The position numbers were made by a program, and so were the translations under genes. DNA of 64,000 nt from Escherichia phage momo, in sequence record MN850580.1; one strand, written 5' to 3'. Below the pieces are notes generated by a model. That model was given only the letters and a program-made list of their open reading frames with translations. It searched no databases and had not been told where the DNA came from. Shown piece after piece: positions 4,899 to 61,833 of this stretch. Within the stretch, counting starts at the first letter, position 1; each line of letters begins with the position of its first letter.

Positions 4899-4974
4899 TG
4901 GAGAATCCGAAGGGACTCGAACCCTTATAAACCTGTTTTGCAGACAGGCACATATCCATTTCTGTCACGGATTC
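4899..4974 (-). tRNA. tRNA-Cys(GCA): tRNA-Cys (anticodon GCA), CCA encoded
   Basis: Manual cloverleaf: acceptor GAATCCG/CGGATTC, anticodon loop CUGCAAA, T-loop. Confidence 0.65.
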
Positions 4975-4978
4975 AAAT

Positions 4979-5071
4979 TGGAGGAAGATACCAGACTTGA
5001 ACTGGTACACCGATTTCTCAGCTACTGGCAGTTTAGCAAACTGCTCCCTTACCTTTTAGGGTTAATCTTCC
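4979..5071 (-). tRNA. tRNA-Ser(GCU): tRNA-Ser (anticodon GCU), long variable arm, CCA encoded
   Basis: 93 nt; acceptor GGAAGAT/ATCTTCC; anticodon loop UUGCUAA. Confidence 0.6.
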
Positions 5072-5072
5072 A

Positions 5073-5870: not shown

Positions 5871-5899
5871 GCGCTTTAACCATATAAGCTACTTGGACT
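5824..5899 (-). tRNA. tRNA-Phe(GAA): tRNA-Phe (anticodon GAA)
   Basis: Anticodon loop CUGAAAA, T-loop TTCAAAT, CCA encoded. Confidence 0.6.
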
Positions 5900-5905
5900 A
5901 TAAAT

Positions 5906-5981
5906 TGGGGTGACCTACGGGATTTGAACCCGTATAGACCATGTTCACAGCATGGGTCATTACCGTTTATGATAAGGCCAC
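5906..5981 (-). tRNA. tRNA-His(GUG): tRNA-His (anticodon GUG)
   Basis: Acceptor with one G-U pair; anticodon loop CUGUGAA; CCA encoded. Confidence 0.65.
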
Positions 5982-6012
5982 ATTTAAGGACTCTCGCAAG
6001 AATCCTTAGAAG

Positions 6013-6088
6013 TGGCAGCGGCATAAGGATTTGAACCTTAATAGGACAGCTTCAGAGGCTGCTGCATTGCCAGTTATGCTATACCGCT
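6013..6088 (-). tRNA. tRNA-Gln(CUG): tRNA-Gln (anticodon CUG)
   Basis: Anticodon stem GCAGC/GCUGU, loop CUCUGAA. Confidence 0.55.
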
Positions 6089-6093
6089 AAATT

Positions 6094-6172
6094 TGGTACT
6101 CCATATCGGATTCGAACCGATACATAACACAGATTTTAAGTCTGGCCTCTCTGCCAATTGGAGTAATGGAGC
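6094..6172 (-). tRNA. tRNA-Leu(UAA)?: tRNA with anticodon UAA (Leu by anticodon) but short variable loop
   Basis: Acceptor and T-arm clear; anticodon loop CUUAAAA; no long extra arm. Confidence 0.5.
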
Positions 6173-6174
6173 AT

Positions 6175-6250
6175 TGGCGGGGGATGTTGGAATTGAACCA
6201 ACTTCTTCGATTTCAAAGACCGAGGTTTTAACCTTGTAAACTAATCCCCT
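6175..6250 (-). tRNA. tRNA-Gln(UUG): tRNA-Gln (anticodon UUG)
   Basis: Anticodon stem UCGGU/AUCGA, loop CUUUGAA; possible 1-72 mismatch. Confidence 0.55.
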
Positions 6251-6258
6251 TTAAATCT

Positions 6259-6816
6259 TTACTTTCTCAGTGGATGAATAAAGAATGCCAACATAACTCT
6301 TTCCCTTGAGAATGCTCTTTCTTCTGGGACAACACTTTTTAGTTTCCATCCAACATAAATTCTCCAGTAAAACTGTTTACCAAAGATTTTAATTGACGGA
6401 ATAAAAGCGAATAATCCCCAAGCATTGTTGTTCCACATTAGGAGATAACCTGTCTGATTATCTTCAGGGTCAGAACTTACGTTGATATTACCTTTCCACT
6501 TAGTAACATCTTTTACATCTCTTCCTAATACATGGTAAGAGAAGTTATAAGCTTTGTTTCTCCAGAGCCATCCAACTCTCTGCATATAAACACCGAGCTT
6601 GCCAATCTTTCTAATCTTAGCCCATCTTTTAATGTGACCTTCATCACCATCAATAGGGTTGTCATATGTCTCCATCCATCTGAATCCAAAAGGTAGATGC
6701 CCTTTCTTCTCACTATAGAATGGAACTACAAAAGGTGCTAAGATAACTGCTAAGGTTGCTGCCAATGGGTCTAACAAAGCTAGGAAAATCCATGAAGCAT
6801 ACTTCAAATATCTCAT
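6259..6816 (-). CDS. hypothetical membrane protein embedded in tRNA array
   Basis: 185-aa ORF with hydrophobic N-terminal segment. Confidence 0.4.
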   Translation of the reverse strand: MRYLKYASWIFLALLDPLAATLAVILAPFVVPFYSEKKGHLPFGFRWMETYDNPIDGDEGHIKRWAKIRKIGKLGVYMQRVGWLWRNKAYNFSYHVLGRDVKDVTKWKGNINVSSDPEDNQTGYLLMWNNNAWGLFAFIPSIKIFGKQFYWRIYVGWKLKSVVPEERAFSRERVMLAFFIHPLRK

Positions 6817-6835
6817 TTAAATAGCCTCTTTAAAT

Positions 6836-6911
6836 TGGCGCAGGATAAGGGATTCGAACCCCTATTAACAGCTTCGTAGACTGCTGCTCTATCCATTTGA
6901 ACTAATCCTGC
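6836..6911 (-). tRNA. tRNA-Arg(ACG): tRNA-Arg (anticodon ACG)
   Basis: Perfect acceptor GCAGGAT/ATCCTGC; anticodon loop CUACGAA. Confidence 0.65.
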
Positions 6912-6916
6912 AAAAT

Positions 6917-6994
6917 TGGTGTTCCAAGACGGATTCGAACCGTCACTAGTACAAGGTTTGAGCTTGCATCCTCTGCCAATTGGGATATTGGAAC
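6917..6994 (-). tRNA. tRNA-Leu(CAA)?: tRNA with anticodon CAA (Leu by anticodon) but short variable loop
   Basis: Acceptor GUUCCAA/UUGGAAC; anticodon loop CUCAAAC. Confidence 0.5.
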
Positions 6995-6995
6995 A

Positions 6996-7070
6996 TGGTA
7001 CTCACTAAAGGACTTGAACCTTTTTCTTCATCTTGTAAGGGTGATGTTTTACCATATAAACTAAGCGAGT
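6996..7070 (-). tRNA. tRNA-Val(UAC): tRNA-Val (anticodon UAC)
   Basis: Anticodon loop CUUACAA; T-loop TTCAAGT. Confidence 0.55.
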
Positions 7071-7165
7071 ATGAAAGAGGTCTGAAGTTGTGCCGCTAAC
7101 TCAACTCCGTGGAATTTGTTACGGTCTTCAGTTGACACCAGCGGTCTTTCACTTGACCTCTGAAT

Positions 7166-7241
7166 TGGTGCTCCCACAAGGATTCGAACCCTGATAAGTT
7201 GCTTACAAGGCAACCGTAATAGCCAATTATACGATAGGAGC
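7166..7241 (-). tRNA. tRNA-Thr(UGU): tRNA-Thr (anticodon UGU)
   Basis: Anticodon stem GUUGC/GCAAC, loop CUUGUAA. Confidence 0.65.
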
Positions 7242-7248
7242 ATTAATT

Positions 7249-7323
7249 TGGAGCATCCAGAGGGAATCGAACCCTCAACCTCAGTTTGGAAGACTGTAAT
7301 TTTCCCGTTTAAACTATGGATGC
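7249..7323 (-). tRNA. tRNA-Gly(UCC): tRNA-Gly (anticodon UCC)
   Basis: Perfect acceptor GCAUCCA/UGGAUGC; anticodon loop CUUCCAA. Confidence 0.65.
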
Positions 7324-7329
7324 ACTAAT

Positions 7330-7403
7330 TGGTGGAGTCACTGAGAATTGAACTCAGTTCCCAAGTTTGCAAAACTCGAATTTTAACCATATAAACTATG
7401 ACC
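7330..7403 (-). tRNA. tRNA-Ala(UGC): tRNA-Ala (anticodon UGC)
   Basis: Acceptor GGGGUCA with G3-U70 pair (Ala identity element); anticodon loop UUUGCAA. Confidence 0.65.
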
Positions 7404-7410
7404 CCATTGT

Positions 7411-7486
7411 TTGGTACAGGTGGAGGGAATTGAACCCATCGTCTTACTGATTAAGAGTCAGCCGCATAACCATTTTGCTACACCTG
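7411..7486 (-). tRNA. tRNA-Lys(CUU): tRNA-Lys (anticodon CUU)
   Basis: Anticodon stem GCUGA/UCAGU, loop CUCUUAA; weak T-stem. Confidence 0.5.
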
Positions 7487-7493
7487 CATTAAT

Positions 7494-7571
7494 TTGGTAG
7501 GAGACAAGGGATTCGAACCCTCAAACATCTCGTTCTAAGCGAGATAGGTTTACCAATTACCGTCAATCTCC
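7494..7571 (-). tRNA. tRNA-Leu(UAG)?: tRNA with anticodon UAG (Leu by anticodon) but short variable loop
   Basis: Perfect anticodon stem UCUCG/CGAGA, loop CUUAGAA; 5-nt variable loop. Confidence 0.55.
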
Positions 7572-7830
7572 CATTAAATCTTTTTAGAGAACTTCTAAGA
7601 ACCTAAGCAACAAGGTTCCACAACAAGCTGTAATAACCTTAGAAGCCCTCTAAAAAGACCTAAAAAGGTCTTTGCATAGTCTTGTTTAATCCGGTGACTA
7701 GAACCTTTGGAGAGCTTGATATTATCTCTTCTCCGTGACACCTACTAGGTGCTTTACTGTGCGTGTACGACAATACACTAGGGATACCAAAGCAACATCC
7801 GAATGAAGCTTGGCTTTAAATCTTATTAGG

Positions 7831-7918
7831 CGGTAAGTAAAGGAGTCGAACCCTCACCGTATCTCTACAGTGGCAACTGTTTTCAAGACAGTTTGGCTAC
7901 CATTAGCCGCTACCTACC
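7831..7918 (-). tRNA. tRNA-Ser(UGA): tRNA-Ser (anticodon UGA), long variable arm, no encoded CCA
   Basis: Perfect anticodon stem ACUGU/ACAGU, loop CUUGAAA; discriminator G. Confidence 0.6.
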
Positions 7919-7931
7919 CCTAATAAGACTT

Positions 7932-8014
7932 TGGCATGGGACGGAGGAGTTGAACCACTTTGAAACGGTTTTGGAGGCCGTTGCTCATGCCTTAGAGTCT
8001 TAACATCGTCCCAC
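7932..8014 (-). tRNA. atypical tRNA-like gene (possible anticodon CCA, Trp) with extra nucleotides between acceptor and D region
   Basis: Clear acceptor GUGGGAC/GUCCCAU, T-arm and encoded CCA, but D-region does not fold canonically in manual fold. Confidence 0.4.
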
Positions 8015-8157
8015 ACTATAATTCGAAGCTTACCGTATTTTCACAACACTGTAAAGCCCCTTCTCAGATTATTTACATGTTCTGGAAAACATGAGATACA
8101 GACCACCTCCTTACACGGAGACCCGATAAGGTCGTCTAAGTAATCTGCTAACTAAAT

Positions 8158-8239
8158 TGGTCGAGGCGGCAGGACTCGAACCCGCATACTCCACTTACTC
8201 GGTTAACGGCGGTTTAGAAGACCGCTGAGATACGCCCCG
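8158..8239 (-). tRNA. atypical tRNA-like gene; one perfect 5-bp stem with loop CUUCUAA (UCU), no canonical D-arm
   Basis: Acceptor CGGGGCG/CGCCUCG, T-arm and CCA present; body folds ambiguously. Confidence 0.35.
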
Positions 8240-8487
8240 TAATTATCTTTAAAGACTCTCTTAGAAAGCCCTTAAAGATGCCCACCTTATTAATCATACC
8301 GTGGGCTAGTACGCCAAATTCTTTGATGAGGGATTGGAAGACCTCACTGGTGTTTAGCCTATCAAGCTACTGCCAGAAAAACATTGTCGTTTGCATTTAT
8401 TTTAAATTTGCAAAATAGACGCTACGCAACGAAAACTAAGGTTACTATAAAGTAGTCGCATCTCAATGTCAACAACTTTATTGAAAT

Positions 8488-8563
8488 TGGTACTGGTAGG
8501 TGGAATCGAACCACCGATGTTCCCTTATCAGGGGAGTGTTATAACCTTCTTAACTATACCAGC
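8488..8563 (-). tRNA. tRNA-Ile(GAU): tRNA-Ile (anticodon GAU)
   Basis: Anticodon loop CUGAUAA; T-arm GGUGG/CCACC. Confidence 0.6.
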
Positions 8564-8564
8564 T

Positions 8565-8641
8565 TGGAGGTTCAGATGGGAATCGAACCCACATTCATAG
8601 GGCTTATGAGACCCTTGCATTACCTTATCTGCGACTGAACC
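8565..8641 (-). tRNA. tRNA-Met(CAU): tRNA-Met (anticodon CAU)
   Basis: Perfect acceptor GGUUCAG/CUGAACC; anticodon loop CUCAUAA. Confidence 0.6.
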
Positions 8642-8645
8642 ATAT

Positions 8646-8720
8646 TGGTAGAAGTGGAGGGATTCGAACCCATCGCCTGTCAGATTAAAAGTCTGCCGCA
8701 TCACCATTCTGCTACACTTC
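8646..8720 (-). tRNA. tRNA-Lys(UUU): tRNA-Lys (anticodon UUU)
   Basis: Anticodon stem GCAGA/UCUGA (one G-U), loop CUUUUAA. Confidence 0.6.
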
Positions 8721-8872
8721 CATTAAATTATCTTTGTAGATAAGCTACCCAGACTTGCTTAAGGTCTGTAGCGATGTGACTTTTTGGGTTTAAATCTAGA
8801 ATTTACCCTTTCACCCTTTGTGGTCGCATACTCACAGGTAAGCTTAATAACTTATCTACAAAGATAATTACC

Positions 8873-9003
8873 AGACCGTTGTTTATCATCTTAAGTGCTA
8901 CCATTACACCAACTCGACCTCTGCCGAGTGAAGGAATCGAACCTTCGCCTTTTCTTTACCGAGAAATAGATTGTTTAAGTTTTGCTGTAAACGGTCTTCT
9001 GTA
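8873..9003 (-). repeat. tRNA-spacer hairpin repeat (CCAGACC...GGTCTTCTG) enclosing a T-arm-like hairpin
   Basis: Inverted termini CCAGACCGTT / AACGGTCTTCTG; internal GAAGG-AATCGAA-CCTTC with no matching acceptor stem. Confidence 0.4.
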
Positions 9004-9013
9004 AATTTGTTGA

Positions 9014-9113
9014 GCCAGACCAAGTTTTAAATTTTTTCAAAATTGAATTGGCTTGAAAATATCATACATTCTTGCTGTATTTGGTCTTCTACTCCTTTAA
9101 AGAATACTCGTAA
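9014..9113 (-). repeat. tRNA-spacer hairpin repeat (CCAGACC...GGTCTTCT)
   Basis: Same terminal inverted repeat as 8873-9003. Confidence 0.4.
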
Positions 9114-9152
9114 GAACTCTTTAAGGGAGGGGCTAAATAGCCCTCTCAAAAT

Positions 9153-9230
9153 TGGCGGTTACGAAGGGATTTGAACCCTCATCATCTCCCGTGACAGGGG
9201 AGTATTTTAACCAAATTAAACTACATAACC
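9153..9230 (-). tRNA. tRNA-Asp(GUC): tRNA-Asp (anticodon GUC)
   Basis: Perfect anticodon stem CUCCC/GGGAG, loop CUGUCAC. Confidence 0.65.
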
Positions 9231-9235
9231 TTTAT

Positions 9236-9323
9236 TGGTGTGCCGTGTAGGAGTCGAACCTACCGAGTCTCAATGACAAGGGATTTACAGTCCCCACCGC
9301 TACCATCTACGGGATAACGACAC
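9236..9323 (-). tRNA. tRNA-Tyr(GUA): tRNA-Tyr (anticodon GUA), long variable arm
   Basis: 85-nt body; anticodon loop CUGUAAA. Confidence 0.6.
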
Positions 9324-9331
9324 ATTTAATT

Positions 9332-9408
9332 TGGCGGTTAGTCAGGGATTCGAACCCTGTGCCATTCGCTTAACAGGCGACCGCACATACCTTATGTGCT
9401 TCCTAACC
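9332..9408 (-). tRNA. tRNA-Asn(GUU): tRNA-Asn (anticodon GUU)
   Basis: Anticodon loop CUGUUAA; T-arm CAGGG/CCCUG. Confidence 0.55.
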
Positions 9409-9418
9409 TTAATACATT

Positions 9419-9481
9419 GCCAGACCGTGTTTTTTCTTTTATCCGCAAAAAAGTATTTTGTTGCTGAATACGGTCTTCTGC
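9419..9481 (-). repeat. tRNA-spacer hairpin repeat (CAGACCGT...ACGGTCTTCTG)
   Basis: Terminal inverted repeat, immediately 3' of tRNA in transcript orientation. Confidence 0.4.
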
Positions 9482-9486
9482 AAAAT

Positions 9487-9563
9487 TGGAGGCGGGTGCA
9501 GGAGTCGAACCTGCCGATACCATGCTAATGAGACATGTGAGACGCCCTTTCTCTATACCCGCA
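9487..9563 (-). tRNA. tRNA-Met/Ile2(CAU): tRNA with anticodon CAU (initiator Met, elongator Met or lysidine Ile2)
   Basis: Anticodon stem CAUGU/GCAUG, loop CUCAUUA; possible 1-72 mismatch. Confidence 0.5.
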
Positions 9564-9574
9564 ATTCTTAATGA

Positions 9575-9648
9575 CCAGACCAAATCTCTTCTTTGTCCGA
9601 TTTACCTTCAGATGAATAAGATTAAGTTTGCTGTAATTGGTCTTCTGT
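9575..9648 (-). repeat. tRNA-spacer hairpin repeat (CCAGACCAA...TTGGTCTTCTG)
   Basis: Terminal inverted repeat as in the other spacers. Confidence 0.4.
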
Positions 9649-9654
9649 CAAAAC

Positions 9655-9732
9655 TGGCGTTCCAGAAGGGATTTGAACCCTCAGATATCCACTTTGAAAG
9701 AGTGGTGACTATACCATTTTGTCTACTGGAAC
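9655..9732 (-). tRNA. tRNA-Glu(UUC): tRNA-Glu (anticodon UUC)
   Basis: Perfect acceptor GUUCCAG/CUGGAAC; anticodon loop CUUUCAA. Confidence 0.65.
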
Positions 9733-9739
9733 ATTAATT

Positions 9740-9816
9740 TGGTCTCTGTTGGAGGACTTGAACCTCCGGCCTTACCGCCCCAAACGGAACGCTCTACCAA
9801 TCTGAGCTAAACAGAG
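9740..9816 (-). tRNA. tRNA-Pro(UGG): tRNA-Pro (anticodon UGG)
   Basis: Perfect acceptor CUCUGUU/AACAGAG; D-arm GCUC/GAGC; anticodon loop UUUGGGG. Confidence 0.65.
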
Positions 9817-37709: not shown

Positions 37710-37754
37710 CTTTTAATCTCTCTCAAAGTGGGGCTTTCAAGCCCCTATAAAGTT

Positions 37755-38651: not shown

Positions 38652-38926
38652 TCAAAAGTTACGTTTGTTACTGCCATTGCAGATTTGCATTTTGCAGGGT
38701 CTACAACGTGATAAAGTACACTACAGTTACCTGTGCTGTCTGGTACAGGCTTTACCCATTGCTGCTTTATATTTGGCTCCCCTAAGTCTTTGTAAGAGCC
38801 ATCTGTAAAGTTGTTTACCATCTCAAGTGCAATTGGTTCTGGAACATGCCCACGTATCATGTACATTTCACAACCATTACCGCCTTCACTGACTAATGGT
38901 AAAATCTCCCACTTCTCTTTAGCCAT
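38648..38926 (-). CDS. hypothetical protein
   Basis: 92-aa ORF. Confidence 0.4.
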   Translation of the reverse strand: MAKEKWEILPLVSEGGNGCEMYMIRGHVPEPIALEMVNNFTDGSYKDLGEPNIKQQWVKPVPDSTGNCSVLYHVVDPAKCKSAMAVTNVTFD

Positions 38927-39434
38927 TGTAAGTTGCCCTATAAACTGTCTCGAACTTCAACAGGAGAGATATTGCCAAATCTGTATAGTTGTTGTCAAGC
39001 ACATCTGGCATATTATTTTTGATATATTTCTCTTGCTCTTCATAGGTCATCTTAGGTGTGCTTAGAAGGTTATCTCCCTGCTTCTGGTTATCAAGTTTAG
39101 TCTGGATAAACCAGTTTGCACAGTGATGCTCACCACCCTTTGTAACAGGTTTGTGGTGGCCTAATGTGAAGGATTGACTACCTGTGTATCTACAAAGCTT
39201 ATTGAGCACTGCAATGGTGTTCTTCACAACAAAACATTCATACAGGTTATCTATAGTGTAGTGTGGGTAATAACGGAATAGTACTCTTTCACGAGTACTT
39301 TCACGATTCCAGAGAATCATGTGATTGGAGTTTGAGGGGTCGTATTGGTGGGAGTCAATGAACTCTTGACGTTCCTCAAAGCTAAGTCTTAACACTGACA
39401 TTGCAGCAGAACGTTTTAGGTTTGACAGATACAT
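38919..39434 (-). CDS. putative HNH endonuclease
   Basis: GHHKPVTKGGEHHCANW...N motif typical of HNH nucleases. Confidence 0.5.
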   Translation of the reverse strand: MYLSNLKRSAAMSVLRLSFEERQEFIDSHQYDPSNSNHMILWNRESTRERVLFRYYPHYTIDNLYECFVVKNTIAVLNKLCRYTGSQSFTLGHHKPVTKGGEHHCANWFIQTKLDNQKQGDNLLSTPKMTYEEQEKYIKNNMPDVLDNNYTDLAISLLLKFETVYRATYNG

Positions 39435-42112: not shown

Positions 42113-43060
42113 TTACATAGAAATTCTGTCACGAATCTCAGCGATTTTTGCATCATTCATTCGGGATTCACCTTTAATCTTAGTCCATCCCAAATATCCG
42201 CACACCCTGTTAATCACAGAGATATCGTGTGAATGACAAACCTCACATTCTTCAACATCAGCCTTTGGTCTGTTACCACAATGTTCACAGATTGCTAAGT
42301 CAAAGTTAAGTCCCTGATAGAAACCTTTCAACATCCCTCTTGTAATACAACTTTTAAGTGCTGTTAAGTTTTCTGGGTTAGCTACTCTTACATACTGGAT
42401 TCTACCACCTCTACAGATATGGAAGAATGGCTCTTCTAAGTCCTGCTTCTCAAATGGTGAGATGTCTGCTGCAACATTCATATGGAAACTGTTTGTAAAG
42501 TATTCCTTGTCAGAGACACCTTTAATAACGCCAAACATATCTCTGAACTGTTTTAACTGAGTTCCACAAAGTGATTCTGCTGGAGTGCCATATACCGCAT
42601 ACAAGAAGCCATCTTCGTTCTTAAACTCTTCAGTTTTCATGTTGATGTATGCCAGAACATCATATGCAAAACTATAGCTTCCAACTTCATGAAGTCGTTT
42701 ACCTTCAGCAAGAACAGATAGCTCATCAAGCGCAGTAACCCCAAAAGAAGCTGTGAAGGACTTCACAATATCCCAACCAACCCTGTCAGTAGGCTTCTTA
42801 GTTCCTTTGTACAGACCACCTTGCGTGAATGCAAGAGGGTTAGAACTTGCTGGCATATTAGCAATCATTTCGTAGCGTTTCTTGTGGAAGCTGCGAATCA
42901 TCTCTAGGTACTTATCAAGCTCTTTCCAGAAATCTAAACCATTCTCTTTAGAATACTGGTAAATCATTGGTAAGTTCAAAGATACAGCACCAATGTTAGC
43001 ACGACCTACATAAAACTCTTCACCATGTTCGTTATGGTATGGTGATAAAAATGCTCTACA
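42113..43060 (-). CDS. nrdD: anaerobic ribonucleoside-triphosphate reductase NrdD, exon 2 (C-terminal glycyl-radical domain)
   Basis: C-terminal zinc-ribbon CEHCG...CEVCHSHD and glycyl-radical RVCGYLG; reading frame is open upstream to 43081; proposed exon start at codon TGT gives junction SPMG|CRAFLSP. Confidence 0.6.
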   Translation of the reverse strand, partial: CRAFLSPYHNEHGEEFYVGRANIGAVSLNLPMIYQYSKENGLDFWKELDKYLEMIRSFHKKRYEMIANMPASSNPLAFTQGGLYKGTKKPTDRVGWDIVKSFTASFGVTALDELSVLAEGKRLHEVGSYSFAYDVLAYINMKTEEFKNEDGFLYAVYGTPAESLCGTQLKQFRDMFGVIKGVSDKEYFTNSFHMNVAADISPFEKQDLEEPFFHICRGGRIQYVRVANPENLTALKSCITRGMLKGFYQGLNFDLAICEHCGNRPKADVEECEVCHSHDISVINRVCGYLGWTKIKGESRMNDAKIAEIRDRISM

Positions 43061-43376
43061 CTTGTTGTTCAGGTAAGTTCGCTAAGCTTACCCCGCTTTA
43101 TTCAAGCTGCTTACTGTCGCCAGTAAGTCCAGACTATATCTTCTACTTATTTCTAAGTAGCGTACCATTTCGAGTCGCTTGACCCTACACCGCTACATTC
43201 ATCACGGTTAGTCGTTCGGCATTTAGATGTACTCAAACTCATATTCGAAGTTATTCGGTATGTAAGACTCCTATGTTGTATAGTTTCTTACATCGTACAT
43301 CATTTAGCACAGGATTGTCTACATCTGTAGAGTTTCCCTGTTTAGGCACGTTTTAGATGAGCTATAGAGCTTGTTA
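43061..43376 (-). other. putative self-splicing group I intron in nrdD (no ORF)
   Basis: Interrupts nrdD; starts with in-frame TAA after exon-terminal U; R-like GACTAA and S-like AGATATAGTC elements, GNRA-capped hairpin CTTACTG-GCGA-CAGTAAG, ends in G. Confidence 0.6.
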
Positions 43377-44573
43377 ACCCATCGGTGAAATTACCTTACC
43401 AGAACGCTCAAAAGCCTCTGCTACAGCACCATGTCCAGTTACACTTAAGAAATCTGGATACATCGCTTTAGAGCAACACTCAATAGCTTTTTCAAACAAC
43501 CTTGCTTGGCATACATCAAGCTTATGTCTCGTTTCTTCATAGATATACACAAGTTTAGGGAACACAACAGGTTTTTTGCTTTTTCCTTGCCCGTTCATCC
43601 TTACGTTAAGGATTGTATTGGCAATCATAAACTGAAGACGGTTATCTTCATTGTGCATATCTGGTTCCAACAGACCAAATGTCAGAGTAGTAAATGCAAA
43701 ATCACCGCGACTGCAAGGAACAGTGTTAAGTTTCATTTCAAGAGATTGGAAACCTTGTGTTAACTCATTCTGTAATTGCTCCATTACGTAATTATAGTGT
43801 TGCTCTTTAGGGATTCCGTACTCTTCAGCTTTCTCTGAGTGGTACACTAAAGACTTCTTAGCATACGGTACAAGTACCTTATCAATCTCTGCTAAAGTAA
43901 AGCCACCAAATTGCTGTGCAGTTGCTGAAAGAACTACATCACCAATAACCTGTAAGGCTGACAGCACAGACTTCGGTTCACAGTATTCAATGCCAGACAT
44001 TTCAAAGCCACCTTTCAGCACTTTACCAATGTCAAACAGGCAACAGTTGATACCACCAAAAATTAGGTCTCTTAAATCATGGATATAGATAAACCCTTTT
44101 TCAATGGCTTCAAGTTCCTCTGGTGTTAAATGGTACTGTTTAAAGATTTCTTTAGTCAGGTAACCACGGATAATTGAACCTTTCGTAGAAATTAAACTGC
44201 TGTCAAAGTTAGCATTTTCACGGTCACCTAAGAAGAGTGTATCTTTAGTCTTCTGGTAGAGTTCATCCCAATTTTGAGCAACCTCTTTACGGTAATTTCT
44301 GTATGTTGAGTAAGACTCATAAATCTCGTGATTAACTTCTGCCAAAGCACCTTCAACAATACTGTGAATATCATTTACCGAGATAAGCAAATTATTCTGC
44401 TTAGTGGACTTTACCAAAATCCTCATGAATGCTGACTCAAGAGCTTGGGTAACATCTGGTGGAAGTTCTTTATATCCAACCCTGTTAGCTGACTTAGCTA
44501 CTGCTGCTAAAACTTTTTTTATATCAGGTTCTTCAAGTGAGCCGTTCTTTTTAATAATCTGTACTTTGTTCAT
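43377..44573 (-). CDS. nrdD: anaerobic ribonucleoside-triphosphate reductase NrdD, exon 1 (N-terminal ATP-cone and core)
   Basis: ATP-cone-like N-terminus (IIKKNGSLEEPDIKKV); spliced product about 714 aa, matching class III RNR size. Confidence 0.65.
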
Positions 44574-50359: not shown

Positions 50360-50857
50360 TCAAGCACAATTTGCTTTCATTACCTTATGGATTCTTTTTT
50401 CAGCATCTTCATAAGTTTCTTTAGTGATAAACTTAATTGCTGCAATATTGGCATTGTAGAAGAGTCTGAGCTTAGAGTCAATCCTTTTTGTCATTACATC
50501 GAATTTATGTTGAAGGTTTGCTTCACCATAGACTAGGCCACCTTTTGTGTAGTAGGTCTGAATAATGTAAAAGTCAAAAAATTCTTTTCCAAAACTCTCA
50601 ATATCTTTTTTAATATACTCAGAAGAAGTCTCATAAGTCATCCAATCACTTTCCTTAGTGACTATCTTCTTCCGAGTCTTCCCAGCAACTTTTCTTTTGG
50701 TCACACTGTTAAACTGTTTCTTTCCGATATAATACTGTCCAGTCTTCTTACAGTGTACTAAATAGACAAAGCCAAAATGTTTAGTGGGGTCAACTTCCCC
50801 ACATAAAGATACCCAATGACCATAGGTAGGGCAATTACCAAAACCTTTAATCTTCAT
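50360..50857 (-). CDS. putative GIY-YIG domain endonuclease
   Basis: GFVYLVHCKKTGQYYIGKK resembles GIY-(10 aa)-YIG motif. Confidence 0.4.
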   Translation of the reverse strand: MKIKGFGNCPTYGHWVSLCGEVDPTKHFGFVYLVHCKKTGQYYIGKKQFNSVTKRKVAGKTRKKIVTKESDWMTYETSSEYIKKDIESFGKEFFDFYIIQTYYTKGGLVYGEANLQHKFDVMTKRIDSKLRLFYNANIAAIKFITKETYEDAEKRIHKVMKANCA

Positions 50858-57075: not shown

Positions 57076-57498
57076 TTATTTCTCTCTCAGTTGGTTAAGT
57101 TTCTTTCTAGAACATTTTAAGTTTTCGGATGAAGAAAAGTCAAGTGTCTTTTCAGAACGTGGATAATAGTGCCTATCCCAAGAAGTTTCAACATCGTTAA
57201 TCAGTGACGCTAGATTACACAGGTCTGTACCACTTTGCAACCTCTTTTTAAGAGAATCTAGTAAAGCAACTGTGTCTTTAGCTTTACGTCTCGCTGTAGC
57301 AACATCTTTCATATGCTCAAATACAGAGCATTTTAAGTCATCTTCATAGTTTTCAGATAACTCTATTTCATGTTGTATATCAACCATTCTCCTGTGATGG
57401 TGAGCATATTCCCGTTGAGCAGCAATGTCAAGTTCTTCCAACTTCTGCAAAGCTCTAACAAAGTCAGCTATGTCTGGGTGAACAAACATTTTCTGCAT
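57076..57498 (-). CDS. hypothetical protein
   Basis: 140-aa ORF, first gene of minus-strand replication block. Confidence 0.4.
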   Translation of the reverse strand: MQKMFVHPDIADFVRALQKLEELDIAAQREYAHHHRRMVDIQHEIELSENYEDDLKCSVFEHMKDVATARRKAKDTVALLDSLKKRLQSGTDLCNLASLINDVETSWDRHYYPRSEKTLDFSSSENLKCSRKKLNQLREK

Positions 57499-57755
57499 GT
57501 AAGCCTCTTTTAAGTAACTATTAAGTTTTAATCTTTTATCTTAACGTATTCTATACGTTATACTTTAAAGCTTTTTAAAAGCTATTAAATAATCTTTTAA
57601 GAGTTTTAAAGTATCTGTATAGTTAAACTGTTAAGTAACCTTTTAAGTAAAAACCCACTTCGCAAAGATTAACACCTTGTCAAGTACATTGTCAACTTGC
57701 TTTTTATAATTTTTTGCAGTAATGTATGAGGTTAATGATTTTAGAGGGAGTAAAA

Positions 57756-60455
57756 ATGGAAAACGTAGATTTTAAAAACTTACATTTGGTTGGTGATACA
57801 GAAACTGATGGTTTACTCCTTGAGTTCACTAAAGTTCACGTAATGGCCTTTGCAGACTATAAATCTGACGATGAAGAGCCACCTGTATGGGTCTTTACAG
57901 ATGAGCCTATCCTCGGTCACAAGTACACTAAGTACATCAAAGGTGGTTTACGTGAAGGTGTTGAATTTGCGTTAAAGGCAAAACGTCTTTGCATCCATAA
58001 CGGTCTCGGTTATGACTGGTGGGTTTTTAATCACATTGCACCTGATTTATGGAACTTTGATAATCCAAAGTGTAAACCGTGGAGTAATTTCTTTCAGGAT
58101 TCTCTTATCCAGTCCCGTGTTCAGTGGATGGATAGACCAACTCCAAAGGGCTATAAAGGTGCTCATGGTTTGGCTGCATGGGGTGCTCGTGTTGGTGTCC
58201 GTAAACCAGAGATTGAACATTGGGGTGTGTGGAATGCAGAAATCTTCACTCGTGTTGTAGAAGATATCCGTATTAATGCCAAAACTAAACGGGCACTTGA
58301 TAACGAGTATCTCAAGCTTAAGAAGTGTGGTATAGACACTTATGAAACTTACATGCGAGCTAAAGAAACATCTTTCTGGATGAGTCAACAAGCTATCAAT
58401 GGTTGGAAAGCTGATAAAGAGCTTATGGAGTTCCATGTAAAGGAGCTTGACAAGTTGACTAATGAGCTTGCTTCAGAGGTTGAACCACATCTACCTCCAA
58501 CTATTAAGACCAAAGGTAAAGTCACTGGAGAAGAGTTTGCAAAAGCTTGGAATGAGTATGTTGAAACATTTGGTCATGCAGATGGACTGAAAAGAATTAC
58601 CAAGTACCCTAAGACAAAGTATCGTCAGCAGGTGCGTAACGGTGAGATGCAAACATATGAAATCAAACCATTTGGTAAGCCAACTACAAAGATTTTTAAC
58701 ATTGAAAAGAGAAATTGCTATACACCAACCAACTCTGTAACTGGTGAAGAGTACAAAGAGGGTTTTGTAGCGATGAAGGATGCTCGTGCAATCTGCAACG
58801 AGTTGAATGCAAAGATTGGCAAAAAATGCAAAGACTGGAAACCAGTAAAAACAGTCAAGACTGTGAAGTACTATAACAGTCACGTTGTCAATCACTTTGA
58901 ACTTGAGTCAAGTCGCTACACAGGTTTGATTGATGCACCATATACACCAATTGAGTTTGAAGTTTCTCGTATGACTCAGGTAGCAGTTGTTAAAGACTAC
59001 TTGAAATCAGTTGGTTGGATTCCAGATGACTGGAATTACAAGAAAGACTCAGATGGTCGCCCTATCAAAGTTTGTCGTTTCAAAGACAATAAAAAGATGA
59101 TTACAAAGCATCCTAAGTGGCAGGAAATGGTTGAGCGGTGTGGTTTGAGTTATGTTGAACATGAAGGTGTACAGTACATTGAGCATAACTGGTCTGTGAA
59201 GAAATACACAGATTTGCTTGAACCTTGCTTAATCCGTACTTCACCAAAACTTACTGAATCATCTTATGATACGATTGAAGGTGAGCTTGGACAGAAGATT
59301 GCTAAGTACTATACTTTGATGCACCGACGCAGAACTATTGAGAACTCAAAGGATGATGAAAAAGGTTGGTTGAACCAGATTCGTCCTGATGGTCGCCTTA
59401 GTGCTGGCGCAATGGTGTTTGGTACTTCAACTGGACGTATGACACAATATGGTATTGTAAACGTACCGTCTGGTGCTGCTGTCTATGGAGCACCTATGAG
59501 GGAAGTTTGGACTTGTGAAGATGGTACAGATATCATCTCCGTAGACCAAAACTCAGCCCAGCTAGTTCTTCTTTGTAACTTTATGGGTGATGAAGACTTC
59601 ACTAAAGCGGTAACTGAGGGTAAAGAGTCAGTAGAGTTCACTAAGCAAGATGATGGTAGGTACTACTGTAAGCATCTTGACAAGTATCTTAACCCAGAAA
59701 CTGACAAGTATCTGCGTTATGATGCTGAAAATGACCTCTATGAAGTCTACACAGGGACTGATGCGCATACACTGAACAGTATTTACTTTGGTCTGAACAA
59801 GGAAGAAGATATTGTTCGTTGTAGGGAGACACAGGATGAGGAACTTCTTCACGAGATTACAAAAGGTCGTAAGAAGAGCAAAAATGGCATCTACGCCCTG
59901 TTATTTGGAGCCGGAGACGAGAAGTTTGCAAAAACTATCAAGGCATCATCTACGGAAGAAGGTGCATTGACTAAACAAACTTACTTTGTTCGTCTACCTA
60001 AGATTAAAAAGCTGCTTGATAGACTAGAGGAAGACTTCAAAGCAACTAAGAAAGCACTTGAAGAGGTTTTTGGAAAAACTTCTGCAATTGCCAAAGGTGG
60101 TTATATCAAAGTTGCTGGAGCGTGGTTATGGTGTAAATCTCCACATAAGCTATTGAATTACACACTTATGGGCAGTGAGGCGCAGGTGCAGAATGAGGGT
60201 ATTAACTTGGCAAACAGGGAACTCACAGAGCGCAAGCTTACAGTTCTAAATGGTAGGAAGCCCGCTATTGGTGCTAGGTGGGTCTGTAGTTACCACGATG
60301 AGGTCTCTTTAGAGGTTCCAACCAAAGATGTACCTGATGTTAAGGAGATTATTGATAGAATGTATGGCCAAGCATCAAAAAATCTTGGATTAAAGAGTAA
60401 GACGCTTGTTACAGGCACTGGTAAGGTAGGTAAGACATGGTACGCCGTACACTAA
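57756..60455 (+). CDS. DNA polymerase, family A, with 3'-5' exonuclease domain
   Basis: Exo I GDTETDG; motif B RKKSKNGIYALLFGAG; motif C YHDE; C-terminus KTWYAVH; start at MENVDF after GAGGGAG. Confidence 0.85.
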   Translation: MENVDFKNLHLVGDTETDGLLLEFTKVHVMAFADYKSDDEEPPVWVFTDEPILGHKYTKYIKGGLREGVEFALKAKRLCIHNGLGYDWWVFNHIAPDLWNFDNPKCKPWSNFFQDSLIQSRVQWMDRPTPKGYKGAHGLAAWGARVGVRKPEIEHWGVWNAEIFTRVVEDIRINAKTKRALDNEYLKLKKCGIDTYETYMRAKETSFWMSQQAINGWKADKELMEFHVKELDKLTNELASEVEPHLPPTIKTKGKVTGEEFAKAWNEYVETFGHADGLKRITKYPKTKYRQQVRNGEMQTYEIKPFGKPTTKIFNIEKRNCYTPTNSVTGEEYKEGFVAMKDARAICNELNAKIGKKCKDWKPVKTVKTVKYYNSHVVNHFELESSRYTGLIDAPYTPIEFEVSRMTQVAVVKDYLKSVGWIPDDWNYKKDSDGRPIKVCRFKDNKKMITKHPKWQEMVERCGLSYVEHEGVQYIEHNWSVKKYTDLLEPCLIRTSPKLTESSYDTIEGELGQKIAKYYTLMHRRRTIENSKDDEKGWLNQIRPDGRLSAGAMVFGTSTGRMTQYGIVNVPSGAAVYGAPMREVWTCEDGTDIISVDQNSAQLVLLCNFMGDEDFTKAVTEGKESVEFTKQDDGRYYCKHLDKYLNPETDKYLRYDAENDLYEVYTGTDAHTLNSIYFGLNKEEDIVRCRETQDEELLHEITKGRKKSKNGIYALLFGAGDEKFAKTIKASSTEEGALTKQTYFVRLPKIKKLLDRLEEDFKATKKALEEVFGKTSAIAKGGYIKVAGAWLWCKSPHKLLNYTLMGSEAQVQNEGINLANRELTERKLTVLNGRKPAIGARWVCSYHDEVSLEVPTKDVPDVKEIIDRMYGQASKNLGLKSKTLVTGTGKVGKTWYAVH

Positions 60456-60940
60456 CACTTCAAGACTACAAGGATAATTTTATTTACGACCCCGACAAAG
60501 GGGTCTTCTACAACAAGTATGACAGGAATAGACAAGCTAAAGCTGGGCAGATTGCAGGAGGTGCTGATGCTTACGGTTACAAAGTACTTAAATTCAAAGA
60601 TGTCGTAATAAAAATTCATCACCTCGTTTGGTGGTTCGAACATGGTTACAAACCCACTAAGATGATAGACCACATTGATGGTAACAGAAGTAATAATCAC
60701 ATTTCTAATCTTAGGGAGACTGATAAATACGGAAATGCTCAAAATAGAGTAAAGCAGACGACTAACAAATCAGGTTACAAGGGTGTGTATTACTTTAAAG
60801 ACTGCAATAAGTGGAGGGCAGCTATAACATGTAGAGGTAAAAGGACATCACTTGGTTTATTTGACACACCTGAAGAAGCCCATAAAGCTTACTGTGAAGC
60901 TGCTATTAAACTTCACGGAGAGTTTGCAAAACTAAGTTGA
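60437..60940 (+). CDS. HNH endonuclease with AP2 DNA-binding domain (putative homing endonuclease)
   Basis: HNH motif IDHIDGNRSNNHISNLR; AP2-like SGYKGVYYFKDCNKWRAAI...LGLFDTPEEAHKAY; start overlaps polymerase stop. Confidence 0.7.
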   Translation: MVRRTLTLQDYKDNFIYDPDKGVFYNKYDRNRQAKAGQIAGGADAYGYKVLKFKDVVIKIHHLVWWFEHGYKPTKMIDHIDGNRSNNHISNLRETDKYGNAQNRVKQTTNKSGYKGVYYFKDCNKWRAAITCRGKRTSLGLFDTPEEAHKAYCEAAIKLHGEFAKLS

Positions 60941-60991
60941 CAAGGTGCTCATGGAAGAGTACCTTATACTATATCTTGTATAGGAGGACTT

Positions 60992-61201
60992 ATGAGTCAC
61001 CGTGGAAGAACCCATGCAGCAATGATGAAAGGTGCTTCAAAGGAGACTATCAAAAATCGTAAGCAGAAGCTGTTTGAGAGAATGAACAGGTTAATTGACA
61101 ATTCATCTCTTTCATGTTCTGAGAAGGTTTTCTTGAAAGGTAATCTGAAAAGCATTGCACAAGAACTTATTGACATTGAGTATTGGAGACATCAAAAATG
61201 A
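60992..61201 (+). CDS. hypothetical protein
   Basis: 69-aa ORF. Confidence 0.4.
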   Translation: MSHRGRTHAAMMKGASKETIKNRKQKLFERMNRLIDNSSLSCSEKVFLKGNLKSIAQELIDIEYWRHQK

Positions 61202-61410
61202 CACTTGCAGACGTTATTCAGCAACTTCACAACAATTGCTATACTCCAGAGTTGATTCAGGAGATGTCCATTGTAGTGATGCCTAGTAAGTTCGTAAAAG
61301 CTTTTAATGGTGACTCTTTAAGGGCTGCACATATCCTTATTGTTGACGGTAAGATTGCAAGAGACCGTACAGGAGTCCTTAAGGGTGAGCGTATTAATAT
61401 TGACATCTGA
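61183..61410 (+). CDS. hypothetical protein
   Basis: 75-aa ORF. Confidence 0.4.
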   Translation: METSKMTLADVIQQLHNNCYTPELIQEMSIVVMPSKFVKAFNGDSLRAAHILIVDGKIARDRTGVLKGERINIDI

Positions 61411-61427
61411 GTATTGGAGATACCAAA

Positions 61428-61583
61428 ATGAAACGCAAAGTAAAATTATTTAATTTATATGGAAGAGTTGCTAAAGGTTTTGACTGGCAACTGTTACGTT
61501 CAAATGTTAAAAGCAATGAATTAGCACCTCTTATCATAAACTACCGACGCACATACAGAGAAGTAGAACATCGTGAACAGTAA
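61428..61583 (+). CDS. hypothetical small protein (not in ORF track)
   Basis: ATG at 61428 after GGAGATACC; 51 codons read by eye. Confidence 0.3.
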   Translation: MKRKVKLFNLYGRVAKGFDWQLLRSNVKSNELAPLIINYRRTYREVEHREQ

Positions 61584-61833
61584 TAGGATGAGTATTATGT
61601 GGAAAGCAGTAATTGCACTTGGTGTTATTTTTCTATCTGGCTGCAACCCTTCTTATGAAGATAAAAATGCTTCTTACAGTCTCCCACCAGAGATGCAAGA
61701 TTGCAGAGTATACAAGTTACATGGTGATGCTATAAGTAGGGATATTGTTGTTGTCAGATGTCCAAACTCTCAAACAACAACATCTTATAGCTACGGAAAA
61801 AATGGTCAATCACATACTACGGTTATTGAGTGA
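61573..61833 (+). CDS. putative lipoprotein
   Basis: Signal peptide with lipobox FLSGC. Confidence 0.4.
   Translation: MNSNRMSIMWKAVIALGVIFLSGCNPSYEDKNASYSLPPEMQDCRVYKLHGDAISRDIVVVRCPNSQTTTSYSYGKNGQSHTTVIE

What the first reader, a model, noticed from the sequence alone, without database searches (positions are those of the whole stretch)
60437..60940. HNH-AP2 endonuclease gene overlapping the 3' end of the DNA polymerase gene; further nuclease candidates elsewhere
A free-standing HNH endonuclease with an AP2 DNA-binding domain starts 19 nt before the polymerase stop codon, a typical homing-endonuclease position. A second HNH candidate (38919-39434) and a GIY-YIG candidate (50360-50857) lie within the nucleotide-metabolism block. 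Together with the nrdD intron this suggests several selfish-element insertions.
Basis: partly seen in the sequence, partly recalled or inferred. Interest (0 to 1): 0.35.

Follow-up and report, generated by a model that had tools for sequence, protein, structure and literature searches.

The report
Homing endonuclease gene behind phage polymerase
The ORF is a real, intact HNH-AP2 homing-endonuclease gene sitting directly behind the DNA polymerase gene of a Felix O1-like phage; the same gene is already annotated in phage Felix O1, so it is an ordinary, known kind of selfish element, though its locus varies a lot between related phages.

Summary
The window is a Felixounavirus genome segment, about 94-97% identical to tootiki, pinkbiff and Felix O1. 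ORF 60437-60940 (+, 167 aa) is real and overlaps the family-A DNA polymerase gene by 19 nt. It has an HNH_3 nuclease domain and an AP2 DNA-binding domain, and it is under strong purifying selection (dN/dS 0.03-0.16). It is 98.8% identical to Felix O1 ORF95, already annotated as "HNH endonuclease".

The site is polymorphic. Of 39 sequenced loci, 15 are empty and 24 carry one of four HNH-AP2 alleles that are only 38-48% identical. The window's allele A is found full-length in only 17 public phage records. It is always linked to a very divergent last ~450 nt of the polymerase gene (about 70% nt identity, against 90-99% for the rest of the gene). This is the mosaic pattern expected from homing with co-conversion.

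The two other nuclease candidates are conserved core genes, not insertions. The nrdD group I intron is real and polymorphic.

The cleavage site is not known.

The parts
60437..60940 (+). HNH-AP2 endonuclease gene, allele A, 167 aa. It is 98.8% identical in protein to Felix O1 ORF95 (NP_944955.1).
   Evidence: dN/dS is 0.03-0.16 among seven allele-A genes.
60614..60730 (+). HNH_3 (beta-beta-alpha-metal) nuclease core, residues 60-98. It contains the motif D78-H79...N87...N91...N103.
   Evidence: Pfam. phmmer matches I-HmuI (1u3e) at E 3.4e-4, aligning 'IDHIDGNRSNNHISNLR' to 'VDHKDGNKDNNLSTNLR'. H79 is invariant, and D78, N87, N91, R93 and N103 are at least 90% conserved in 42 homologues.
60770..60919 (+). 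AP2 DNA-binding domain, residues 112-161
   Evidence: Pfam AP2. Foldseek matches TEM1, WRI1, ERF1 and ERF96 AP2 domains with probability 1.00 and rmsd 1.1-2.0 A.
57726..60455 (+). Family-A DNA polymerase gene. It lies upstream and overlaps the HNH gene, probably supplies its transcription, and is probably the gene the endonuclease targets in rival genomes.
   Evidence: No promoter or terminator signal above chance lies between the two genes.
59986..60436 (+). Polymerase 3' block of haplotype A, which always travels with HNH allele A. It is about 70% nt and 76% aa identical to every other haplotype.
59892..59918 (+). Unoccupied insertion site of the polymerase group I intron. The site lies after 59898, inside the motif coding for KNGIYA/LLFGAG. 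Here it is in a sequence variant that differs at 9 silent positions in 27 nt from the commoner intron-less variant.
60488..60505 (+). Hairpin GACCCC-N6-GGGGTC inside the HNH ORF. The stem is invariant in all four alleles and the loop varies.
60868..60940 (+). Last ~70 nt of the HNH gene, nearly identical in all four alleles. This is the right-hand edge of the exchangeable cassette.
60941..60991 (+). Intergenic region before the next gene (60992-61201, phrog_5180). It is the same in occupied and empty sites. The HNH stop codon TGA lies inside a TTGACA box.
42980..43373 (-). Group I intron without an ORF, splitting nrdD. The Rfam hit spans 43110-43437.
50360..50857 (-). Single-domain SegE-like GIY-YIG protein. 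It is a conserved core gene, not an insertion.
38919..39434 (-). Conserved 171-aa protein (phrog_3500) with a possible cysteine-less H-N-N motif (H93, N107, N116). It is a core gene, not an insertion.

Best explanation
The ORF is a functional free-standing homing endonuclease gene. It is one allele ('A') of a polymorphic HNH-AP2 locus that sits between the polymerase stop codon and the next gene in Felixounavirus phages.

**Shown.**
- The protein has an intact I-HmuI-type HNH catalytic core and an AP2 DNA-binding domain.
- The gene is under purifying selection.
- The site is empty in many relatives and holds other alleles in others.
- Allele A is strictly linked to a deeply divergent last ~450 nt of the polymerase gene.

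**Inferred.**
1. The gene has no promoter of its own. It is read from the polymerase transcript, using the GGTAGGT Shine-Dalgarno-like sequence 5 nt before its ATG, which lies inside the polymerase coding sequence.
2. In a cell co-infected with a relative that lacks allele A, the enzyme nicks or cuts that relative's DNA in or near the 3' part of the polymerase gene. I-HmuI and T4 MobE, the nearest characterised enzymes, are nickases.
3. Recombinational repair then copies the endonuclease gene together with the neighbouring polymerase 3' segment from the allele-A genome. This produces the ~900-nt cassette seen here (59986-60867).
4. The phage's own polymerase 3' sequence differs from the target and so is not cut.
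For: - **Domains and catalytic residues:**
- **Same gene already annotated as HNH endonuclease in Felix O1:**. Felix O1 is reported to have six HNH homing endonuclease genes (PMC3185647).
- **Precise empty sites.** In 15 of 39 loci the sequence reads ...CACTAA|TTAGTATTGACAAGG..., against the occupied ...AAACTAAGTTGA|CAAGG....
- **Four alleles.** They are 38-48% identical and all carry HNH_3 plus AP2.
- **Rarity of allele A.** It is full-length in 17 of the 155 records that carry any allele's 3' end.
- **Linked polymerase block.** The polymerase 3' 555 nt is 94-99% identical among allele-A phages and 66-72% identical to all others, while the upstream polymerase sequence is 90-99% identical. The breakpoint against otherwise near-identical phages falls at about 59986.
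- **Selection.** dN/dS is 0.03-0.16.
- **Context of distant homologues.** They are free-standing genes between unrelated phage genes.
- **Functional precedent.** T4 MobE is a promoterless free-standing HNH gene that nicks the neighbouring gene and moves flanking DNA (PMC2790892). Nuclease genes are reported at recombination boundaries in phages (PMC10448857).
Against: - No cleavage site is known, and none can be derived from sequence.
- Allele A and its polymerase block show dS of 0.05-0.47 among carriers. The association is therefore old and stable rather than a recent invasion. Long persistence under purifying selection also fits a useful, domesticated function.
- No donor lineage for the divergent polymerase block was found in 50,697 phage records.
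- The breakpoints differ between comparisons and do not mark one sharp cleavage point.
- The loci are phylogenetically related, so the counts are not independent.
Confidence: 0.7

Rival explanations
1. Collaborative homing with the polymerase intron. The free-standing HNH-AP2 enzyme cuts intron-less polymerase genes at or near the group I intron insertion site, ~540 nt upstream of its own gene. Genomes that carry the enzyme are protected either by the intron or, as in this window, by a silent-site variant of the target. The ORF-less intron is carried along in trans. This is a more specific version of the best explanation.
For: - Relatives carry a 268-nt group I intron without an ORF at this site (Rfam 61 bits).
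- All 3 ORF-less-intron loci in hand carry an HNH allele. So do 20 further records that appear both and.
- Loci whose intron carries its own Endonuclease_7 ORF are mostly empty downstream: 5 of 6, against 10 of 33 for the rest (Fisher p=0.024; Pfam).
- Every allele-A or allele-D locus has either the intron or the variant TACGCCCTGTTATTTGGAGCCGGAGAC. This variant differs at 9 silent positions from the variant in empty, B and C loci.
- Precedents exist: F-CphI with the psbA intron, and MobE with I-TevIII (PMC6083498, PMC2790892).
Against: - The silent-site variant follows the Felix O1-like clade of the upstream polymerase sequence, so shared ancestry explains it equally well.
- Allele-C and most allele-B phages have the same intron-site sequence as empty-site phages. 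Those alleles therefore cannot target it without cutting themselves.
- The breakpoint to D-type phages lies ~90 nt downstream of the intron site, not at it.
- The counts are not phylogenetically independent.
Confidence: 0.2
2. Domesticated nuclease. The protein no longer behaves as a mobile element. It serves the phage instead, for example by degrading or excluding DNA of competing phages or the host, or by helping replication or recombination next to the polymerase.
For: Purifying selection is strong and the association with the polymerase block is long-lived. The gene is tightly coupled to an essential gene.
Against: Presence/absence and allele replacement at one exact site is the signature of a mobile gene, not of a fixed accessory function. 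Fifteen of 39 related loci do without any gene here. The gene is not next to the terminase, where helper HNH proteins are known to act (own knowledge).
Confidence: 0.12
3. Inactive remnant or pure DNA-binding regulator. The AP2 domain binds DNA as a transcription factor and the nuclease is dead.
For: AP2 domains act as transcription factors in plants and apicomplexans (structures matched).
Against: The catalytic D-H...N...N positions are all present and conserved. dN/dS is low over the whole ORF. The HNH domain scores well above the Pfam cut-off.
Confidence: 0.03

Closest known systems
Felix O1 ORF95 / Felix01p176 (NP_944955.1), 'HNH endonuclease'
   Same: It is the same gene at the same position, with the same 19-nt overlap with the polymerase. 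It is 98.6% identical in nt and 98.8% in aa. It is one of the six HNH homing endonuclease genes reported for Felix O1 (PMC3185647).
   Different: Only a handful of substitutions. The window's phage differs from Felix O1 elsewhere. It lacks two other Felix O1 HNH-AP2 genes (ORF106, ORF128), and it has an nrdD intron that Felix O1 lacks.
[quoted passage not shown] 2004, as cited in PMC5029118)
   Same: The two-domain architecture is the same: an HNH nuclease followed by one AP2 domain.
   Different: None in architecture. I could not read the 2004 paper itself. My recollection that it names Felix O1 proteins is from memory only.
I-HmuI (PDB 1u3e), intron-encoded HNH nickase in the DNA polymerase gene of Bacillus phage SPO1
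   Same: The HNH_3-type catalytic core aligns at E 3.4e-4. Both are associated with a family-A polymerase gene of a phage.
   Different: I-HmuI is encoded inside the intron and, from my own knowledge, uses different DNA-binding modules rather than AP2. Foldseek did not list 1u3e among the top 50 matches to the whole model.
T4 MobE (free-standing HNH homing endonuclease between nrdA and nrdB)
   Same: Both are free-standing HNH genes placed directly behind an essential nucleotide or DNA-metabolism gene. MobE is promoterless and depends on upstream transcription, has an internal hairpin, nicks the neighbouring gene, and co-converts flanking DNA including a neighbouring intron (PMC2790892).
   Different: The HNH subfamily and the DNA-binding domain differ. 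Activity is demonstrated for MobE and only inferred here.
F-CphI and the psbA intron of cyanophage S-PM2 (collaborative homing)
   Same: Both pair a free-standing endonuclease gene next to a gene that, in some genomes, carries an ORF-less group I intron (PMC6083498).
   Different: F-CphI uses an Endo VII-type motif. Here the Endo VII-type ORF is the one found inside the intron of some relatives, and the free-standing gene is HNH-AP2. The target site is unknown here.

Membership tests
HNH endonuclease, HNH_3 / I-HmuI type (PF13392) | Profile match above the curated threshold | tested here: met
   44.8 bits against a cut-off of 24.8, E 9.9e-12. phrog_99 matches at 3e-63.
HNH endonuclease, HNH_3 / I-HmuI type (PF13392) | Catalytic Asp-His pair followed by conserved Asn residues (an H-N-N arrangement) on a beta-beta-alpha fold | tested here: met
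   D78-H79, N87, N91 and N103 are present. H79 is invariant and the others are at least 90% conserved in 42 homologues. The region aligns to the I-HmuI catalytic region. The model has strands 76-79 and 92-95 followed by helix 97-102.
HNH endonuclease, HNH_3 / I-HmuI type (PF13392) | Metal-dependent DNA nicking or cleavage | not testable with these tools
   Needs purified protein.
AP2 DNA-binding domain (PF00847) | Profile match above threshold, and a three-stranded sheet packed on a helix | tested here: met
   44.0 bits against a cut-off of 33.3. The model has strands 117-120, 125-132 and 135-142 and helix 145-163. Foldseek probability is 1.00 and rmsd 1.1-1.5 A to 7et5, 7wq5 and 1gcc.
Free-standing homing endonuclease gene (mobile element) | Presence/absence polymorphism at a precise site between conserved flanks | tested here: met
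   Empty sites occur in 15 of 39 loci, with identical flanks.
Free-standing homing endonuclease gene (mobile element) | Flanking-marker co-conversion, seen as a mosaic block linked to the gene | tested here: met
   A polymerase 3' haplotype is strictly linked to allele A. Boundaries lie at about 59986 and about 60868.
Free-standing homing endonuclease gene (mobile element) | Site-specific cleavage of genomes lacking the gene, and super-Mendelian inheritance in crosses | not testable with these tools
   Needs cleavage mapping and mixed infections.
Collaborative homing (free-standing endonuclease plus ORF-less intron) | The endonuclease target coincides with the intron insertion site, and the intron protects against cutting | tested here: inconclusive
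   The intron is absent from the window. The association of ORF-less introns with HNH alleles, and the silent-site variant at the insertion site, are suggestive but confounded by phylogeny.
GIY-YIG homing endonuclease (for ORF 50360-50857) | GIY-YIG nuclease domain | tested here: met
   SegE_GIY-YIG at 3.7e-28.
GIY-YIG homing endonuclease (for ORF 50360-50857) | An added DNA-binding domain, and sporadic distribution among relatives | tested here: not met
   The domain spans residues 21-138 of 165, and no second domain was found. The ORF is present at the same place in 257 of 299 matching records. Protein homologues occur in 773 records, including cyanophages.
HNH endonuclease (for ORF 38919-39434) | Profile match or fold match to HNH nucleases | tested here: inconclusive
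   No Pfam HNH hit. phrog_2214 matches at only 2.7e-4. H93, N107 and N116 are invariant on a beta-beta-alpha element in a medium-quality model (pLDDT 70). The top Foldseek matches are HNH domains but weak (E at least 0.2, probability at most 0.41).
HNH endonuclease (for ORF 38919-39434) | Sporadic distribution, as expected for a homing element | tested here: not met
   Conserved in 399 of 428 matching phage records across several phage groups.

The most novel reading that the evidence does not exclude
The 3' end of the Felixounavirus polymerase gene is a contested site for three kinds of selfish element:
- an ORF-less group I intron;
- the same intron carrying an Endo VII-type endonuclease;
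- four allelic lineages of free-standing HNH-AP2 endonucleases.

In this reading the free-standing enzymes of alleles A and D target the intron insertion site in polymerase motif B. The ORF-less intron survives only as a protected passenger (collaborative homing). Intron-less carriers such as this window are immunised by nine silent substitutions at the target.
Probability: 0.2. Interest if true: 0.45.

Novelty: already known. Interest (0 to 1): 0.15.

Why it matters
On its own it matters little, because the gene is already annotated in the type phage of the genus and its architecture has been described.

It does have practical value. Felix O1-like phages are used for Salmonella and E. coli diagnostics and biocontrol. 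The polymerase gene is often used as a phylogenetic marker, but its last ~450 nt is a recombination cassette that travels with the endonuclease allele and should be left out of trees.

The locus would also be a convenient natural system for studying competition between free-standing and intron-borne endonucleases. It offers several alleles, empty sites and two intron forms, all in easily grown coliphages.

Tried and rejected
- **Fold search for I-HmuI.** Foldseek of the full model against the PDB returned only the AP2 half with confidence. I-HmuI was not in the top 50, so the link to I-HmuI rests on sequence.
- **NCBIfam.** It gave no hit for any of the three proteins.
- **Promoters and terminators.** The scan over 57400-61400 found no more sites than shuffled sequence (7 against 9.0 expected). 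Co-transcription with the polymerase is therefore inferred, not shown.
- **RNA folding.** The 121 nt around the start codon folds no better than chance (z = 0.10). Only the short GACCCC/GGGGTC hairpin stands out.
- **Breakpoint at the intron site.** I expected the recombination breakpoint to sit exactly at the intron insertion site. It lies ~90 nt downstream in the closest comparisons and elsewhere in others.
- **Donor of the divergent polymerase block.** I found none. The next-best proteins are at most 79% identical in the records listed, with two unlisted records in the 80-90% band, and Erwinia phages are at 68-70%.
- **Paralogues in the window.** There are none.
- **Hairpin in distant homologues.** One of the two fetched lacks the conserved stem. 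In the other the motif reads YNP, so the script did not print its DNA.
- **Magnani et al. 2004.** The paper could not be read.
Full report
**What the window is.** A 5.7-kb stretch around the finding matches 262 phage records. Almost all are Felixounavirus (Felix O1-like myophages of Escherichia, Salmonella and Shigella). The best matches are 94-97% identical: tootiki, pinkbiff, skuden and Felix O1.

**Checking the observation.** ORF 60437-60940 (+, ATG start, 167 aa) is present. The 909-aa ORF 57726-60455 ends with TAA at 60453-60455, so the two genes share 19 nt.
- The upstream ORF is a family-A DNA polymerase.
- The 167-aa protein matches Pfam HNH_3 at residues 60-98 (E 9.9e-12) and AP2 at residues 112-161 (E 2.8e-11). 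Both scores are well above the curated cut-offs. It also matches PHROGs phrog_99 'HNH endonuclease' at 3e-63.
- Against solved structures, the HNH part aligns with the SPO1 homing nickase I-HmuI (1u3e, E 3.4e-4; 'IDHIDGNRSNNHISNLR' against 'VDHKDGNKDNNLSTNLR'). The C-terminal part aligns with plant AP2 factors.
- In an alignment of 42 homologues, H79 is invariant. D78, N87, N91, R93 and N103 are at least 90% conserved.
- An AlphaFold model built on that alignment is confident (pLDDT 95.8). Its AP2 domain superposes on TEM1, WRI1 and ERF1 at 1.1-1.5 A with Foldseek probability 1.00.

**It is a known gene.** The Felix O1 reference genome annotates the same ORF, with the same overlap, as Felix01p176/ORF95 'HNH endonuclease'. 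It is 98.6% identical in nt and 98.8% in aa. The Felix O1 genome paper reports six HNH homing endonuclease genes (PMC3185647). HNH-AP2 proteins as a class of predicted homing endonucleases are cited from Magnani et al. 2004 (PMC5029118).

**The locus is polymorphic.** I joined the two flanks of the ORF into one query and searched the phage records.
- Some relatives (finno, H12, E9, NBEco005, KhF2) match as one uninterrupted piece. They have an empty site.
- I then collected 39 Felixounavirus-type loci from GenBank and IMG/VR and located the genes in each.
- Fifteen loci are empty. After the polymerase stop the sequence reads TTAGTATTGACAAGGTGCTCA... and the next gene starts 62 nt on.
- Twenty-four loci carry an HNH-AP2 gene, in four allelic forms:
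  - A: 167 aa, 19-nt overlap with the polymerase. This is the form in the window, Felix O1 and tootiki.
  - B: 170 aa, with a TGATG stop/start overlap.
  - C: 170-175 aa, starting 10-11 nt after the stop.
  - D: 177 aa, starting 4 nt after the stop.
- Alleles B-D are only 38-48% identical to A. All have HNH_3 plus AP2.
- All alleles share a nearly identical last ~70 nt. In every case the stop codon lies in ...AAGTTGACAAGG, so the downstream intergenic region is untouched.
- In the public phage collection, 155 records carry that shared 3' end. Only 17 carry allele A over its full length.

**A linked block in the polymerase gene.** Sliding-window identity shows that phages otherwise 95-100% identical to the window across the polymerase gene drop to 50-85% from about 59986 to the end of the gene. 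They stay at 35-60% through the HNH gene and return to about 95% at about 60868.
- A pairwise matrix of the last 555 nt of the polymerase gene separates the loci into deep haplotypes that follow the mobile-element state. Allele-A phages are 94-99% identical to each other and 66-72% identical to all others.
- At the protein level the A block is about 74-79% identical to other Felixounavirus sequences. That is hardly closer than to Erwinia phages (68-70%). No closer donor exists among 50,697 phage records.
- The differences cluster around the catalytic YHDE motif: 'ARWVCSYHDEVSLEVPT' in A against 'ARLLLAYHDENSWECPE' in the others.
- Among allele-A phages the HNH gene has dN/dS of 0.03-0.16, with dS up to 0.47. 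The linked polymerase block has dN/dS of about 0.01.

So the gene is functional, and the pairing of gene and block is old.

**Mechanism.** These features are what is expected of a free-standing homing endonuclease: a precise insertion between conserved flanks, several alleles replacing each other, and a co-inherited divergent stretch of the neighbouring essential gene. The endonuclease would cut rival genomes near its own site and be copied into them together with flanking DNA, while its own flank stays resistant. The nearest characterised analogue is T4 MobE. MobE is a promoterless free-standing HNH gene behind nrdA that nicks nrdB of rival phages and drags neighbouring DNA along (PMC2790892). 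Nuclease genes at recombination boundaries are described for other phages too (PMC10448857).

Here, transcription from the polymerase message and translation from the GGTAGGT sequence 5 nt before the ATG are inferred from the sequence and from the absence of promoter or terminator signals above chance. The target site is not known.

**A more specific possibility.** Many relatives have a group I intron in the polymerase gene, inserted after the base corresponding to 59898, in the codons for KNGIYA/LLFGAG.
- In some it is 268 nt without an ORF (Rfam RF00028, 61 bits, in tootiki and pSJ21).
- In others it is about 800 nt with an Endonuclease_7-family ORF (Sl26, VpaE1, JH2, Si3).
- The window has no intron there.
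- All 3 ORF-less-intron loci in hand carry a downstream HNH allele. So do 20 further records that can be read from the tables.
- Five of 6 loci whose intron has its own endonuclease are empty downstream (p = 0.024, not corrected for relatedness).
- Every allele-A or allele-D locus has either the intron or a variant of the insertion site that differs at 9 silent positions in 27 nt from the variant in empty, B and C loci.

This would fit 'collaborative homing'. However, the variant also follows the Felix O1-like clade of the upstream polymerase sequence, and allele-C phages share the insertion-site sequence of empty-site phages. I rate this reading at about 0.2.

**The other items in the finding.**
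- *ORF 38919-39434* is on the minus strand.
  - It has no Pfam HNH match.
  - It belongs to phrog_3500, of unknown function.
  - It shows an invariant cysteine-less 'GH..P...GG.HH..NW.IQ...DNQ' motif on a beta-beta-alpha element in a medium-quality model. That model's best but weak Foldseek matches are HNH domains.
  - It is present at the same place in nearly all relatives, and also in Erwinia phages and ~150-kb E. coli phages (399 of 428 records with at least 80% coverage).
  - It may be an HNH-like protein, but it is a conserved core gene and not an insertion.
- *ORF 50360-50857* (minus strand) has a SegE-type GIY-YIG domain (3.7e-28) but no second domain. It is conserved in all relatives and in hundreds of cyanophages, usually under the label 'NAD synthetase'. 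It is again not a polymorphic insertion.
- *The nrdD intron* is real. nrdD is split into 43374-44573 and 42113-42979, with a group I intron between them (Rfam 54.4 bits). Relatives show three states: no intron (wV8, heid), an ORF-less intron as here (REP7, EC6), and an intron with an HNH ORF (Alf5, VSe11). Felix O1 itself has an uninterrupted nrdD, in agreement with its genome paper.

**Verdict.** The gene is already known. The added value here is a description of the locus as an exchangeable cassette of about 900 nt (polymerase 3' end plus endonuclease) with empty and alternative states. Interest is low.

Noticed in passing
window 59892-59918; L004 and L005 2637-2920; L008 2039-2801: Relatives carry a group I intron in the polymerase gene at the codons for KNGIYA/LLFGAG. 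It occurs as a 268-nt ORF-less form and as an ~800-nt form with an Endonuclease_7-family ORF. Many GenBank records simply annotate two 'DNA polymerase' CDSs. The window has no intron here, but it has a variant of the insertion site with 9 silent changes in 27 nt.
   Followed up: partly
window 60488-60505: The hairpin GACCCC-N6-GGGGTC lies inside the HNH ORF. Its stem codons are identical in all 23 other HNH-positive loci scanned and in the window, across four alleles only 38-48% identical, while the loop varies. It occurs once in the window, against 0.01 expected. One of two distant homologues checked lacks it; the other was not read at the DNA level. It may be an internal attenuator like the one in T4 mobE, or a gene-conversion island.
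   Followed up: partly
window 42980-43373 (-): The nrdD group I intron occurs in three states among relatives: absent, ORF-less as here, or carrying an HNH ORF. Part of it is ~71% identical to the T4 td intron region. Felix O1 lacks it.
   Followed up: partly
window about 50850 and 37710-37754; L044 4341-4865 and 17215-17706: Felix O1 has two further HNH-AP2 genes: ORF106, between the exonuclease and the GIY-YIG gene, and ORF128, between prs and nadV. They are 38% and 34% identical to the polymerase-adjacent one. Both sites are empty in the window, so closely related phages differ in endonuclease content at several loci.
   Followed up: partly
window 50360-50857 (-): Homologues of this SegE-like GIY-YIG protein are labelled 'NAD synthetase' in many phage records, including cyanophages (PHROGs phrog_447 carries the same label). 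Pfam sees only a GIY-YIG nuclease domain. This looks like a propagated misannotation.
   Followed up: no
window 4902-9816 (-): Rfam finds a cluster of 24 tRNA genes on the minus strand.
   Followed up: no
GU169904.1 92634-98493; MG065668.1; MG065664.1: Records named Staphylococcus phage SA1 and Campylobacter phages A126 and A132 contain Felixounavirus sequence ~95% identical to the window, including this polymerase-HNH region. They are probably mixed or contaminated assemblies.
   Followed up: no
window 60992-61750: The small genes after the HNH gene are themselves a patchwork. The 69-aa gene (60992-61201) is missing in several relatives, and other small ORFs are swapped in or out between the polymerase and ligase genes.
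   Followed up: no
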